From positions 62,001 to 126,000 of the forward strand of contig OZ237775.1 in NCBI GenBank assembly GCA_965178125.1: a stretch of DNA of 64,000 nucleotides, read 5' to 3'. The position numbers and the translations under genes were made by a program. Every line of letters starts with the position of its first letter. Positions within the stretch are counted from its first letter, which is position 1. This DNA is from Bilabrum cf. latius. Lineage: Eukaryota. The notes under the pieces were generated by a model. That model made no database searches. It saw only the letters and a program-made list of their open reading frames with translations, and was not told where the DNA came from. This document shows, one piece after another, positions 4,666 to 57,216 of the stretch.

Positions 4666-5853
4666 ATGTACGAGTATATGTATATCTATGGATTCATTGC
4701 AACGATCGCAGCACTGGCCCTTGCGGCCTTAGCAGCCTTATCTAAGGTTGGCGTTGTGCTTTTTGCACTCCACCCACTTCTTCTTTGCTCGGGGTATGGT
4801 GCCATGATGCTTGCAATTGGTGCATACTACATGCCACCTGGGTGGCTATCAGAATCTCCTCTCATGGGCCGACTCCGCGCTAGAGCCACTCACGCCAGGC
4901 TACAGGTAGCCGCGGCGATTCTCATTGCAACTGGAGTTGCCGGCATTCTAGCGAACAAGATGTACACTGGGAAGAGCCTGTGGTCAGGTTCACTGCACGC
5001 GTGGATTGGTGCCATGGCCTCCGCCACCGCTTTGCTGCAGGCGGGCTGCGGCCTTCTCAAGCGCCCCGCGCGGCTCGCCGCTCCTGCCCGCCCCTAGTCC
5101 TACTAGCCGAGGCGCCCTCTGGACGCGAGCAGCGGCGACTCGATCGGCGCTGCCGCTCCTGCGGGTAGCCATAGCGATGAATCAGATGAGAGGCGCGGCT
5201 TGGTTTCGGGTACCCCCGTGCCCATGGCGGATGGGGCATGCTCTGCACCAGTGGCAGGGGCAGGCAGGATGCCGTTGGGGGATGGGGCATGCTCTGCACC
5301 AGTGGCAGGGGCAGGCAGGATGCCGTTGGGGGATGGGGCATGCTCTGCACCAGTGGCAGGGGCAGGCAGGATGCCGTTGGGGGATGCTGTGTCCGGCGAC
5401 GGGGGTCAGGGGAGAGGTGATATGGGCCCCGCGGGGGACGAAGAGACATACCCTCCTTCACTGCTGGGGGCTTGTACATTAAGGGCAGCTTGCATGGGCG
5501 CAGGCTCGGTGGGGGCTGCTGCCACACATACAGGCATACCGTCCACACAAGCCTGCGCGGGCTCTGGGGCGGCGGCTTGGGGGCCGGTGGCGTGGATGGT
5601 GGCCAAGCACGGGGTCGCGGGGCCATGGGTGGCAGCAGGCGGGCTGCTGGCTGTGTGCTCAGGCACTGCAGCGCTGTGGGGTTCCTGGGATGGGCCGGTT
5701 TCGTCAATCGTGGCGCTACTGGCAGCGTTAGGGGCAGCATGGCTGGCTATGGGCAGAGCGGAATCGATACGGAGGGGGCAAATGAAGGCCGAGCAGAGAG
5801 GCTGGGTAGTGGCAGAACCCCGGCGTGGCGATACAGACAAGTCGCAGCCATAA
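4666..5853 (+). CDS. Cytochrome b561-like membrane protein with a long low-complexity insertion; TAG at 5095-5097 and 5104-5106
   Basis: ORFs 4585-5097 and 5200-5853 share one frame and are separated only by TAGs. Four His residues lie in hydrophobic helices (FALHP, THARLQ, SLHAWIG, KHGVAG). Ends in TAA. Start codon uncertain. Confidence 0.7.
5230..5382 (+). repeat. 3 x 51-bp coding tandem repeat (DGACSAPVAGAGRMPLG)
   Basis: Identical units start at 5230, 5281 and 5332. Confidence 0.95.
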
Positions 5854-6019
5854 TGTACTTCGGGGTTAGGCTGCGTTCGTGCGTTGGCATTGGCGCCGCT
5901 GCTCGGCGCCAATGCGAGGATGAAGATTATCGACCTGATAGCATTGCATAACAGCAAACCGAGGCTACCCGGCATCCTGCTAGCGCTACGAAAATCTCAG
6001 AAAGGTATTTTTTGCCACA

Positions 6020-7336
6020 ATGGGGCGAGACAAAGGGTCAAATCCCGTCGAGGCTCACAGGCGCGCGCAACGAAAAAAACAAGCAGCCAAAGAGAAGAAA
6101 CAGCGCACGTAGGTTCGCGAAGTGGCGTTAAAGCACCGGGATATACAAGACCTGCGCGATGAAGTTTTTAGAGCAAAGATGGGCATCAAACGTGCTCCGT
6201 TGGGGCCCCAACGTGTACAGCTGGAGATGCACGTGGACAAGCTGCAAGCGAAGCTACGGACCGCAGTTCGAGTGCAGCACGGAGACGAAGCTCTTGCTAA
6301 AGAGATAGAGCGCTAGCGAAAAGAGGCGGCAGACGAAGTTGCCGAGCGCGAGTAGGCCGAGGCAGCAGAGGCGCCGGGTGGAGCACTGGAAGACGAGGCG
6401 CAGCGAAGGGCACGAGAGGCCGAGGAGGCACAAGCAAGGCAAGAAGCAGCCGCAGAAGAAGCTGCTTTAAAACGACAAGCCATGGCATTCATGCCATCTA
6501 ACCTTCGACGCAAATAGAAGCGAGCGAGAGCACAGCAGCAACCCAATACTCTCGCCAGCTAGCGAGCAAGTGCTCCCGCCAGCAGTGCCAGTGGCACGCA
6601 AGCAGTGCCTGACGCTACATCGTCTCCCATCATTGCTCCCATAGACAGCAAGTTGCCCGAACAGCCTGCTTCGAAACGCGCTAGGATGGAGGTGGGCAGT
6701 AGTGGGAAGGTAGGCGCAGTCCAGGCACAGGGCAAGGCGCAAGATGCAAGGGGGGGCGATTTACTCACGATCGATTCCATGGGCATGGGCATGGGCATGG
6801 GCATGGGCATGGGCATGGGCATGGGCATGGTTGGTATTGGGGCGGGATCATCGCTCCAGCCCCGACCTGCAGCTGCCATGGCATCCACAGCATCGTCATC
6901 TTCCACGTCTGCCTCAACTCCGACCCCCATCTAGCTATCTGCTGTCGATTTGCTGGGACTACCCTTGCCCGCTGCTCCCACAAAGACTGATACTGAGCCT
7001 AGGCAGATGCCTCAGTCTCAGGCTGCGTCCCGATCCAAGCCACAGGCCCCTGCCCCTGCCCCTGCCTCCGCCCCCGCCCCCGCCCCCGCCGTGCCCCACC
7101 TGTCAGCATCAACAGCGGTTAAGGCAACTCTGGCCCAGGAAAATTTGACTCGCCATGATGCAGGGACAGCAAAGGGGGGCGAGACCAGCGAAGGCCACCC
7201 AGCCCAAGGTGAGGCTAACGGGGTGCGTGGTGGCATGGGAGGTGCAATAACGAATGGTACTAGTAGCACCGAGGCTGAAGGAGCCAAGGACGCAGATGCA
7301 GCGCTGCAAGACCTGTTCGCCATGGACACGGACTGA
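6020..7336 (+). CDS. WBP11: WW-domain-binding protein 11-like splicing factor; six in-frame TAGs (6110, 6314, 6353, 6515, 6560, 6932)
   Basis: The N-terminus MGRDKGSNPVEAHRRAQRKKQAAKEKKQRT*VREVALKHRD resembles the Wbp11 domain, and AFMPSNLRRK resembles the FVPTALRV motif. One frame runs to TGA. Confidence 0.72.
6779..6829 (+). repeat. (ATGGGC)n microsatellite encoding a Met-Gly run
   Basis: Directly visible hexamer repeat inside the WBP11-like CDS. Confidence 0.95.
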
Positions 7337-56347: not shown

Positions 56348-56805
56348 GGAATTCTCTACGAACGAAAGTGCGAGATGGACTGGTGCAGAGAACGTTCGTG
56401 AACCCGATTCGATTTTATTGTGGAATCCACACGTAACCACTTCGAAGACAAGAACGAGTAGGAGGCAAATTACACCAATTCGACGAGTATTCTGTGTGAG
56501 GGAAGCTTGAAGAATGTGGTATGTTTGATTTATAAGGCATTATGCCGATTATCCGCGTACATACGCCTTCGTAGATTCAGTTGTCTGCAAGAAAGATTTG
56601 AGTGATTCATAATGTCCGAGGTTCTATGTGGAACGGGCTAAGGGTTTCCTCGCTTGGGCATCGTAGGCTTTACCCACTTATGTGTCTGGTTGGCATGAGG
56701 TGCCCGTAAAGTGCTGTACCGCCTGGTTTTGCCGTGCTTGTAGCTCGGGCGTATTTGGGTGTACTCGCGTCGAGCGTGTTTTCCTCGCTTATCTTTGCGC
56801 AGAAA

Positions 56806-57216
56806 ATGGCCCGCACAAAGCAAACTGCACGCAAGTCGACTGGAGGAAAGGCCCCGCGCAAGCAGCTGGCCACGAAGGCTGCCAGGAAGAGCGCTCCGTC
56901 CTCTGGAGGCATCAAGAAGCCGCACCGCTACAGGCCCGGCACCGTCGCCCTGCGCGAGATCAGGAGGTACCAGAAGTCGACCGAGCTGCTGATCCGCAAG
57001 CTCCCCTTCCAGCGCCTGGTGCGCGAGATCGCCCAGGAGTACAAGGCCGACCTGCGATTCCAGGGGACTGCCATCCTGGCCCTGCAGGAGGCCGCCGAGG
57101 CCTACCTGGTTGGCCTGTTCGAGGACACCAACCTGTGCGCGATCCACGCCAAGCGCGTGACGATCATGCCCAAGGACGTGCAGCTGGCCCGCCGCATCCG
57201 CGGGGAGAGGTCCTGA
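56806..57216 (+). CDS. H3: Histone H3 (variant-like residues [23 protein letters not shown])
   Basis: Reads [21 protein letters not shown]...[11 protein letters not shown]. The true start is ATG 56806, not 56734. Confidence 0.99.

What the first reader, a model, noticed from the sequence alone, without database searches (positions are those of the whole stretch)
5851..57216. TAA and TGA stay as stops, so UAG and UAA are decoupled
Seen: all traced gene ends are TGA (CysRS, FECH, HMGR, AspRS, GH53, UTP25, RNR, Tam41, H3 and others) or TAA (5851, 14011, 31941, 47097). None needs TAG, and I found no in-frame TAA inside a conserved domain. Inference: eRF1 must accept UAA and UGA but reject UAG, and decoding must use a CUA-anticodon tRNA rather than a wobbling UUA one. 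This specificity is unusual and relevant to amber-suppression engineering. The four TAA ends fall in poorly conserved C-termini, so TAA=stop is less secure than TAG=Gln.
Basis: partly seen in the sequence, partly recalled or inferred. Interest (0 to 1): 0.8.

Follow-up and report, generated by a model that had tools for sequence, protein, structure and literature searches.

The report
TAG codes glutamine; TAA, TGA stop
In this GC-rich protist DNA the codon TAG is read as glutamine, while TGA and, less often, TAA still end genes; this kind of genetic code is rare but already documented, here in what looks like a new lineage.

Summary
All 22 gene ends I could trace are TGA (18) or TAA (4), and none is TAG. 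In 23 reading frames (16,779 internal codons) TAG occurs in frame 80 times, TAA and TGA never. About 21 TAA would be expected if TAA were a glutamine codon used like CAA relative to CAG.

TAG = Gln is well supported. It sits at Gln columns of ferrochelatase (Q in 103 of 120 homologues), AspRS (Q 37, H 83 of 120) and Tam41. In a syntenic metagenome contig of a related species (L001), 11 of 19 TAG-containing codon pairs are TAG/Gln-codon pairs, all 11 with CAG.

TGA falls exactly at conserved C-termini (AspRS: 118 of 120 homologues). One TAA end is matched by a TAA end in the L001 orthologue, with more stops just behind it.

The eRF1 and tRNA(CUA) inference follows published logic. It could not be tested: no genome is held and there is no tRNA gene in the window.

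The code is the known UAG-only type (NCBI table 15; Iotanema, Hartmannula, Trochilia). The host looks like a stramenopile, for which my searches found no such report.

The parts
5851..5853 (+). TAA ending the cytochrome b561-like gene (4666-5853)
   Evidence: Codon checked; Pfam b561 match. Reading through would run 103 more codons to a TGA. That would overlap the Wbp11 gene, whose Met at 6020 aligns to Pfam profile position 2. Composition after this TAA is inconclusive.
14011..14013 (-). TAA ending a ubiquitin-like/zinc-ribbon gene (14011-15048)
   Evidence: A TGA follows two codons on. The L001 orthologue also ends in TAA, followed four codons later by TAA TAA. GC falls from 0.58 to 0.43 after it.
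31941..31943 (+). TAA ending an unnamed gene (30546-31943)
   Evidence: A TGA follows five codons on. GC at codon position 3 is 0.97 in the 30 codons before the TAA and 0.50 after it.
47097..47099 (+). TAA ending the GH3 glycosidase gene (44403-47099)
   Evidence: Pfam GH3 N and C domains. The 30 codons between the TAG at 47007 and this TAA keep a coding-like GC pattern (0.77/0.53/0.70), lost after the TAA (0.47/0.63/0.50). Termination at the TAG is not excluded.
16184..16186 (-). TGA ending AspRS at a conserved C-terminus
   Evidence: 118 of 120 homologues end at the same last residue. The last residue also aligns to the ends of the human and yeast chains. L001 has TGA at the aligned place.
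11484..11486 (-). TGA ending HMG-CoA reductase
   Evidence: Both the window and L001 end ...FPRCVVP followed by TGA.
15945..15950 (+). TGA TGA ending a small membrane-protein gene (15393-15947)
   Evidence: The C-terminus ...KTG is shared with L001, which also ends in TGA. Codons checked.
10403..10405 (+). TGA ending ferrochelatase
   Evidence: A 99% identical protein from another assembly (P0128) ends at the same residue.
1741..1743 (-). TGA ending CysRS
35945..35947 (+). TGA ending the first of three tandem paralogues (same codon at 39906 and 44193)
   Evidence: Between copies 1 and 2 there are 4 differences, all at third codon positions, in the 132 nt between the last TAG and the TGA. There are 58 differences in the 155 nt after the TGA.
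54457..54462 (-). TAG followed directly by TGA at the end of Tam41
   Evidence: The C-terminal tail after six earlier TAGs matches positions 282-322 of the 322-position Tam41 Pfam profile.
57214..57216 (+). TGA ending histone H3
   Evidence: The translation ends ...RIRGERS before TGA. That this is the usual H3 end is recalled, not tested.
9575..9577 (+). In-frame TAG in ferrochelatase at a conserved Gln
   Evidence: Aligns to Q of human FECH. The column is Q in 103 and H in 17 of 120 homologues. The 99% identical P0128 has Q there.
17039..17041 (-). In-frame TAG in the AspRS catalytic domain
   Evidence: Aligns to Q in human and H in yeast. The column is H in 83 and Q in 37 of 120. L001 has CAG.
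12216..12218 (-). In-frame TAG in the HMG-CoA reductase catalytic domain
   Evidence: Aligns to N in human and to CAG in L001.
56261..56263 (-). In-frame TAG in the Tam41 N-terminal motif YGSGVFE-TAG
   Evidence: Aligns to Q in both solved Tam41 homologues. The local stretch is short and low-scoring.
57429..63998 (+). NACHT-LRR frame, 2,190 codons open to the window end, with 13 in-frame TAG and no TAA or TGA
   Evidence: The NACHT domain (residues 931-1096) and LRRs (2088-2185) lie downstream of 3 and 11 of the 13 TAGs respectively, and one more TAG lies inside each domain.

Best explanation
The window is nuclear DNA of a GC-rich, intron-poor, compact eukaryote, probably a heterotrophic stramenopile. 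Its cytoplasmic translation reads UAG as glutamine and keeps UGA (the main one) and UAA (the minor one) as terminators. This is the NCBI table 15 pattern.

Shown here: TAG is a regular sense codon. It makes up about 11% of Gln codons (80 of 700), is interchangeable with CAG between related species, and is absent from gene ends. TAA and TGA never occur inside genes. TGA sits at conserved C-termini. TAA ends 4 of 22 genes, and one of these is confirmed by an orthologue.

Inferred from established decoding rules, not tested here: a tRNA-Gln with anticodon CUA, one mutation away from CUG, reads UAG but not UAA. eRF1 has lost or weakened UAG recognition while keeping UAA and UGA.
For: (1) ORF structure. 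Treating TAG as sense raises ORFs of 300 aa or more from 43 to 65 and the longest from 959 to 2,215 codons. Treating TAA as sense changes almost nothing. 21 of 23 gene frames hold at least one in-frame TAG.

(2) Census. In 16,779 internal codons there are TAG 80, TAA 0, TGA 0, CAG 489 and CAA 131. If TAA were Gln at the CAA/CAG ratio, 21.4 TAA would be expected, and P(0) is 5e-10.

(3) Meaning of TAG. The FECH column is Q 103 and H 17 of 120. The AspRS column is Q 37 and H 83 of 120. Tam41 aligns to Q in two homologues. P0128, 99% identical, has Q.

(4) Related species. L001 is syntenic to window 17829-11569 at 67-74% nucleotide identity and has its own in-frame TAGs. Of 19 aligned codon pairs containing TAG, the partner is a Gln codon in 11, and no other residue exceeds 2. 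For comparison, CAG pairs with Q or TAG in 58 of 82.

(5) Stops. AspRS, HMGR and the small membrane-protein gene have TGA in both species at aligned C-termini. The ubiquitin-like gene has TAA in both, with further stops within 2-6 codons. 118 of 120 AspRS homologues end at the same residue.

(6) Composition. GC3 minus GC2 falls from 0.18 to 0.00 across the 21 terminal stops and stays at 0.10 to 0.07 across 74 TAGs. Mean GC falls from 0.646 to 0.548 across terminal stops and is 0.618 to 0.623 across TAGs.

(7) Paralogues. All TAGs are conserved among the three tandem copies, all but one indel are multiples of three, and divergence jumps after the TGA.

(8) TAG is not depleted near gene ends. 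5 TAGs lie in the last 50 codons of 21 genes, about 5.0 expected (read off).
Against: Only 64 kb plus a 6.9 kb relative were examined, so the census covers 22 ends.

Three of the four TAA ends rest on this window alone and lie in unconserved tails. At b561 the composition does not change after the TAA.

At GH3 and Tam41 a TAG lies 30 and 0 codons before the accepted stop, so occasional TAG termination is not excluded.

The HMGR TAG aligns to N in human. In AspRS, H is commoner than Q. 8 of 19 TAG pairs with L001 are not Gln.

My codon-bias score was too noisy to call individual ends.

There are no RNA or protein data, so editing of UAG to CAG is not excluded directly. No tRNA(CUA) or eRF1 sequence was seen.
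Confidence: 0.85

Rival explanations
1. Both UAA and UAG encode glutamine (the common UAR=Gln code, NCBI table 6) and UGA is the only stop. TAA would be rare only because the genome is GC-rich.
For: TAA is the rarest stop trinucleotide (165 on the + strand, against TAG 417 and TGA 816). Two TAA 'ends' are followed by a TGA within 2-5 codons, so reading through them would barely change the proteins.
Against: In-frame CAA is not rare (131, against CAG 489). About 21 in-frame TAA would therefore be expected beside 80 TAG, and 0 are seen inside genes. The only four candidates lie 103, 2, 5 and 69 codons before the next TGA, never in a gene body. Reading through at 5851 would overlap the next gene. 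The L001 orthologue ends in TAA followed by TAA TAA. Composition changes after 3 of the 4 TAAs.
Confidence: 0.04
2. UAG is ambiguous: sense inside genes but also a terminator near transcript ends, as in Condylostoma-type context-dependent codes.
For: The genome is compact with short gene spacing; for example, 58 nt separate the RNR stop from the next ORF's first ATG. At GH3 a TAG lies 30 codons before the TAA, and at Tam41 a TAG is adjacent to the TGA. Neither tail is conserved.
Against: No traced end requires TAG (0 of 22). TAG is not depleted in the last 50 codons (5 seen, about 5 expected). After the last TAG of the tandem paralogues, the 44 codons up to the TGA stay conserved, with third-position changes only. 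The GH3 stretch between the TAG and the TAA keeps a coding-like GC pattern. TGA and TAA are strictly absent inside genes, unlike codes with no dedicated stop.
Confidence: 0.07
3. The code is standard. Genomic TAGs are removed before translation (U-to-C editing to CAG) or passed by inefficient natural read-through, or the TAG-bearing genes are pseudogenes or assembly errors.
For: A 99% identical protein from another assembly has Q where the window has TAG.
Against: The 80 TAGs are spread over 21 of 23 genes, including essential ones (AspRS, CysRS, FECH, HMGR, RNR). An independent metagenome DNA contig of a related species carries TAG at other positions where the window has CAG, as expected for synonymous codons at the DNA level. 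P0128 starts at the first ATG of the unspliced exon and differs at two other residues, so it looks like a strain variant on genomic DNA and not an edited transcript. No gene ends in TAG, which a standard code in a 62% GC genome would not predict.
Confidence: 0.03

Closest known systems
Iotanema spirale (Fornicata) nuclear code: UAG=Gln, with UAA and UGA as stops (Panek et al. 2017, PMC5304391; abstract and section 9 read)
   Same: Only UAG is reassigned, it goes to glutamine, and UAA is kept as a terminator. The predicted mechanism is the same: tRNA-Gln(CUA) derived from CUG, plus altered eRF1.
   Different: In Iotanema UAA is the primary stop (abstract). Here TGA ends 18 of 22 genes and TAA only 4. 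The genome here is about 62% GC and the organism looks like a stramenopile, not a metamonad. The Iotanema eRF1 T32G change could not be checked here.
Hartmannula sinica and Trochilia petrani (phyllopharyngean ciliates): UAG=Gln (McGowan et al. 2024, PMC11687900; abstract and introduction read)
   Same: UAG alone is reassigned to Gln, and UAA stays a stop.
   Different: Those are ciliates in which UAA is the preferred stop. Here the preferred stop is TGA, and the best named homologues are stramenopiles, not ciliates.
NCBI translation table 15 (Blepharisma nuclei: TAG=Q)
   Same: The table as implemented reads only TAG differently. It opens the ferrochelatase exon with Q at codon 91 and ends it at TGA.
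   Different: This is a formal table, not an organism. According to the introduction of McGowan 2024, Blepharisma itself reads UGA as Trp.
Rhizarian exLh and TARA phyllopharyngean ciliates: UAG=Leu
   Same: UAG is decoupled from UAA, with a CUA-anticodon suppressor tRNA.
   Different: The amino acid differs. Here TAG pairs with Gln codons in 11 of 19 cases and with Leu in 1 of 19.
UAR=Gln codes (table 6: many ciliates, hexamitin diplomonads, some ulvophytes, Amoeboaphelidium)
   Same: TAG is read as glutamine.
   Different: In those codes TAA is also glutamine. Here TAA is absent from gene bodies and ends genes.

Membership tests
UAG-only to Gln nuclear code (table 15 pattern; Iotanema/Hartmannula/Trochilia type) | TAG occurs in frame inside conserved protein-coding genes | tested here: met
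   80 in-frame TAG in 16,779 codons, in 21 of 23 frames; 6 of them lie inside Pfam- or PDB-matched segments.
UAG-only to Gln nuclear code (table 15 pattern; Iotanema/Hartmannula/Trochilia type) | TAG corresponds to glutamine in homologues | tested here: met
   FECH column Q 103 of 120. AspRS column Q 37 and H 83 of 120. Tam41 Q in two homologues. 11 of 19 TAG pairs with L001 are Gln codons. One exception: the HMGR TAG aligns to N in human but to CAG in L001.
UAG-only to Gln nuclear code (table 15 pattern; Iotanema/Hartmannula/Trochilia type) | TAA is not a sense codon | tested here: met
   0 internal TAA, against 21.4 expected from CAA/CAG usage and 48.5 per off-frame. 0 in 3,456 conserved codons. 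The sample is limited to 64 kb.
UAG-only to Gln nuclear code (table 15 pattern; Iotanema/Hartmannula/Trochilia type) | TAA functions as a terminator | tested here: met
   4 of 22 ends are TAA. The orthologous gene in L001 also ends in TAA, with TAA TAA behind it. Composition changes after 3 of the 4. Termination itself was not observed biochemically.
UAG-only to Gln nuclear code (table 15 pattern; Iotanema/Hartmannula/Trochilia type) | TGA functions as a terminator at conserved C-termini | tested here: met
   AspRS: 118 of 120 homologues end at the same residue. The HMGR and small membrane-protein ends are shared with L001.
UAG-only to Gln nuclear code (table 15 pattern; Iotanema/Hartmannula/Trochilia type) | A tRNA-Gln with anticodon CUA and no UUA suppressor | not testable with these tools
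   No genome is held. There are 0 tRNA genes in the window and in L001 and 0 Rfam matches.
UAG-only to Gln nuclear code (table 15 pattern; Iotanema/Hartmannula/Trochilia type) | eRF1 N-domain changes that weaken UAG recognition | not testable with these tools
   eRF1 is not in the window, and no searchable genome or named protein set of this organism is available.
UAR to Gln code (table 6) | TAA in frame at Gln positions | tested here: not met
   0 internal TAA in 16,779 codons.
Context-dependent codes with no dedicated stop (Condylostoma/Parduczia type) | All stop codons also occur as sense codons, and sense 'stops' are depleted just upstream of true ends | tested here: not met
   TGA and TAA never occur inside genes. 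TAG frequency in the last 50 codons (5 in 1,050) equals the overall frequency. The sample is small.

The most novel reading that the evidence does not exclude
This is an independent, so far unreported origin of the UAG-only glutamine code in stramenopiles. No nuclear code variant is listed for that supergroup in the 2017 overview I read, and my searches found none. At least two species share it (the window's organism and the L001 metagenome relative, about 74% nucleotide identity in conserved genes). It is the first such code in a GC-rich genome where UGA, not UAA, is the dominant terminator. That would give a natural eRF1 that keeps UGA and UAA but not UAG, in a background different from the AT-rich Iotanema and ciliates.
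Probability: 0.45. Interest if true: 0.7.

Novelty: new member of a known kind. Interest (0 to 1): 0.58.

Why it matters
UAA and UAG almost always change meaning together, and cases where they are split are few: Iotanema, the rhizarian exLh, some phyllopharyngean ciliates and one oligohymenophorean.

A further, probably independent, case in a GC-rich and apparently stramenopile genome would add a data point on how the coupling can be broken. It would also show that a UAG-only reassignment can coexist with UGA as the main stop.

Practically, any annotation of this genome or of related metagenome bins with the standard code truncates nearly every gene: 21 of 23 frames here carry TAG. Table 15 should be used.

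The organism's eRF1 and tRNA-Gln(CUA) would be natural templates for amber-specific suppression work, but neither has been seen yet.

Tried and rejected
- **Whole genome.** Not held, so there was no genome-wide stop census, no eRF1 and no tRNA search.
- **tRNA and RNA families.** ARAGORN and Rfam found nothing in the window or in L001.
- **Codon-bias score.** A log-odds score trained on conserved segments was too noisy to call individual gene ends, and it also lit up wrong frames in repeats. I replaced it with GC-by-codon-position and plain GC comparisons.
- **Sequencing runs.** Nine runs hold the stretch, all with coded names, and no RNA holder is listed. No transcript, splice or strain-variant data were obtained.
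- **Earlier findings.** Nothing for this genome, its relatives or the key words.
- **Taxon naming.** The listing of cluster members gave no organism names. The Atlas search returned only generic class II synthetase clusters. A search for the TSA prefix of one near hit found no paper.
- **UTP25.** A search with its C-terminal part among longer proteins found nothing.
- **Literature.** Searches for a stramenopile or other GC-rich organism with UAG=Gln found none. One apparent hit concerned only Blastocrithidia.
- **Tandem paralogues.** They gave no TAG/CAG swap, because their TAGs are all conserved.
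Full report
**What the window is.** The 64 kb are 57-67% GC and densely packed with eukaryotic genes, mostly without introns:
- CysRS, a cytochrome b561 protein, Wbp11, ferrochelatase, HMG-CoA reductase, a ubiquitin-like/zinc-ribbon protein, a small membrane protein and AspRS.
- A KH protein, GH53, UTP25 and two unnamed proteins.
- Three tandem copies of a Cys-rich membrane protein.
- GH3, a class II ribonucleotide reductase, two LRR proteins, Tam41, histone H3 and a NACHT-LRR giant.

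No whole genome is held. The window has no tRNA gene and no Rfam match.

**The observation.** Under the standard code the genes are broken. Letting TAG be sense raises ORFs of 300 aa or more from 43 to 65 and the longest from 959 to 2,215 codons. Letting TAA be sense does almost nothing: 46 ORFs, longest 959.

Of 22 gene ends I could trace, 18 are TGA, 4 are TAA and none is TAG.

In 23 frames (16,779 internal codons; H3 left out of this script) the in-frame counts are:

| Codon | In frame | Per off-frame |
|---|---|---|
| TAG | 80 | 105 |
| TAA | 0 | 48.5 |
| TGA | 0 | 299.5 |

So TAG behaves like an unconstrained triplet and the other two are excluded. The frames were delimited by TAA and TGA, so the zeros are partly built in. 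The real evidence is that homology-supported frames this long are open at all, and that the only TAAs in TGA-delimited frames lie 103, 2, 5 and 69 codons before the next TGA.

**What TAG means.**
- In ferrochelatase the TAG aligns to Q of the human enzyme. The column is Q in 103 and H in 17 of 120 homologues. A 99% identical protein from another assembly has Q there.
- In AspRS it aligns to Q in human and H in yeast. The column is H in 83 and Q in 37 of 120.
- In Tam41 it aligns to Q in two solved homologues, in a short weak stretch.
- In HMG-CoA reductase it aligns to N in human.

**The related contig L001.** The strongest evidence comes from a 6.9 kb metagenome contig, L001 (GC 0.57). It is syntenic to window 17829-11569 and carries AspRS, the small membrane-protein gene, the ubiquitin-like gene and HMGR, at 67-74% nucleotide identity. 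L001 has its own in-frame TAGs at other positions.

Over 1,810 aligned codons, 19 pairs contain a TAG. The partner is a Gln codon in 11, and no other residue exceeds 2. For comparison, CAG pairs with Q or TAG in 58 of 82. These include TAG in L001 at the invariant QSPQ motif of AspRS and the GQD motif of HMGR, and CAG in L001 where the window has TAG in both enzymes. TAG is therefore a glutamine codon, about 11% of Gln codons, in at least two species.

**Are TGA and TAA real terminators?**

For TGA:
- It follows the last conserved residue of AspRS; 118 of 120 homologues end there.
- It closes HMGR and the small membrane-protein gene at C-termini shared with L001.
- It closes ferrochelatase where P0128 also ends.
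- In the tandem paralogues the 132 nt between the last TAG and the TGA differ at 4 sites, all third positions. The 155 nt after the TGA differ at 58.

For TAA:
- The gene ending at 14011 has an L001 orthologue that also ends in TAA, followed by TAA TAA four codons on. In the window a TGA follows after one codon.
- At 31941, GC3 drops from 0.97 to 0.50.
- At 47097 the coding-like GC pattern persists from the upstream TAG to the TAA and is lost after it.
- At 5851 composition is uninformative. Read-through would run 103 codons into the Wbp11 gene, whose start at 6020 matches the start of the Pfam profile.

Across all 21 ends scripted, GC3-GC2 falls from 0.18 to 0.00 and GC from 0.646 to 0.548. 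Across the TAGs these values stay flat.

If TAA were glutamine and used like CAA relative to CAG, 21.4 in-frame TAA would be expected. None is seen (P about 5e-10).

**Could TAG also terminate?** No end needs it. Tam41 is read through six TAGs before its tail matches the last 41 positions of the Pfam profile. That fragment alone scores 18.8 bits, below the 24-bit cut-off, but the whole frame scores 151 bits in two stretches. TAG is as frequent in the last 50 codons (5 in 1,050) as elsewhere. Two ends remain open on sequence alone: GH3 has a TAG 30 codons before its TAA, and Tam41 has a TAG adjacent to its TGA.

**Mechanism.** A tRNA that reads UAG but not UAA must carry anticodon CUA, one step from tRNA-Gln(CUG). 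eRF1 is expected to have lost affinity for UAG, as with T32G in Iotanema. The rhizarian exLh, however, shows no obvious change in the conserved motifs (PMC5304391, section 9; PMC11687900, introduction). Neither molecule could be examined here.

**Comparison and novelty.** The code equals NCBI table 15 as implemented by the tool. It matches Iotanema spirale and the ciliates Hartmannula sinica and Trochilia petrani, so the decoupling itself is known.

Two things differ:
- **Main stop.** TGA, not TAA, is the main stop, in a GC-rich genome.
- **Lineage.** The best named homologues of two genes are stramenopiles: Cafeteria and several ochrophytes for AspRS, oomycetes and Cafeteria for FECH. A quick tree puts the AspRS on a long branch next to unnamed metagenome proteins, then a transcriptome entry and Cafeteria. 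This placement is tentative.

The 2017 overview of lineages with variant nuclear codes lists no stramenopile (figure legend), and four literature searches found no such report. I rate it a new member of a known kind.

**Limits.** There is no tRNA or eRF1 sequence, and paper supplements were not readable.

Noticed in passing
window 32504-35947, 36435-39908, 40865-44195: Three tandem copies (94-97% identical) of a roughly 3.5 kb gene for a Cys-rich multi-pass membrane protein with no Pfam match. All indels are multiples of three except a 2-nt deletion in the third copy, which splits its frame into 40865-42133 and 41637-44195. That copy may be a pseudogene, may have an intron there, or may carry an assembly error.
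   Followed up: partly
window 47331-50387: A monomeric class II (B12-dependent) ribonucleotide reductase in a eukaryote (Pfam RNR_Alpha and RNR-II insertion domain). It has a roughly 200-residue N-terminal extension and a roughly 100-residue Gly-rich tail after a C-terminal Cys pair.
   Followed up: no
L019 (1702 nt, GC 0.51), AspRS match 541-1698: Another metagenome AspRS fragment with five in-frame TAG and no in-frame TAA or TGA, aligned to K, L, T, Q and Q of the window protein. It may be a further UAG-reassigned organism, but the alignment is only 37% identical. L007 and L011 (GC 0.31 and 0.41) carry both TAA and TAG in frame, like ciliates.
   Followed up: no
window 54457-56539 (-): Tam41 is split by an intron. 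It also carries an insertion of about 250 residues of low-complexity sequence between Pfam profile positions 209 and 282, holding six of its TAGs. The opposite strand has a 485-codon stop-free shadow ORF (54364-55821+).
   Followed up: partly
P0128 versus window 9305-10405: A 99% identical ferrochelatase from another public assembly has Q where the window has TAG, and differs at two other residues near the C-terminus. This suggests a TAG/CAG polymorphism between strains.
   Followed up: partly
window about 6800 (Wbp11), about 29400 (unnamed gene), 62100-62500 (NACHT gene), 5200-5400 (b561): Coding microsatellites and short tandem repeats are translated as MGMGMG, TQTQTQ, ADVGAADAT repeats and a threefold 17-residue repeat. 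They produce false coding signals in other frames.
   Followed up: no
window 8861-9304/9305-10405 and 13213-13590/11484-12995: Ferrochelatase and HMG-CoA reductase each have an upstream exon in another frame, so introns exist though they are few. The HMGR upstream exon is conserved in L001 (4678-5112).
   Followed up: partly
window 57429-63998: A NACHT-LRR protein of more than 2,190 residues runs off the window end. The STAND NTPase is followed by LRRs, an architecture typical of innate-immunity-type receptors.
   Followed up: no
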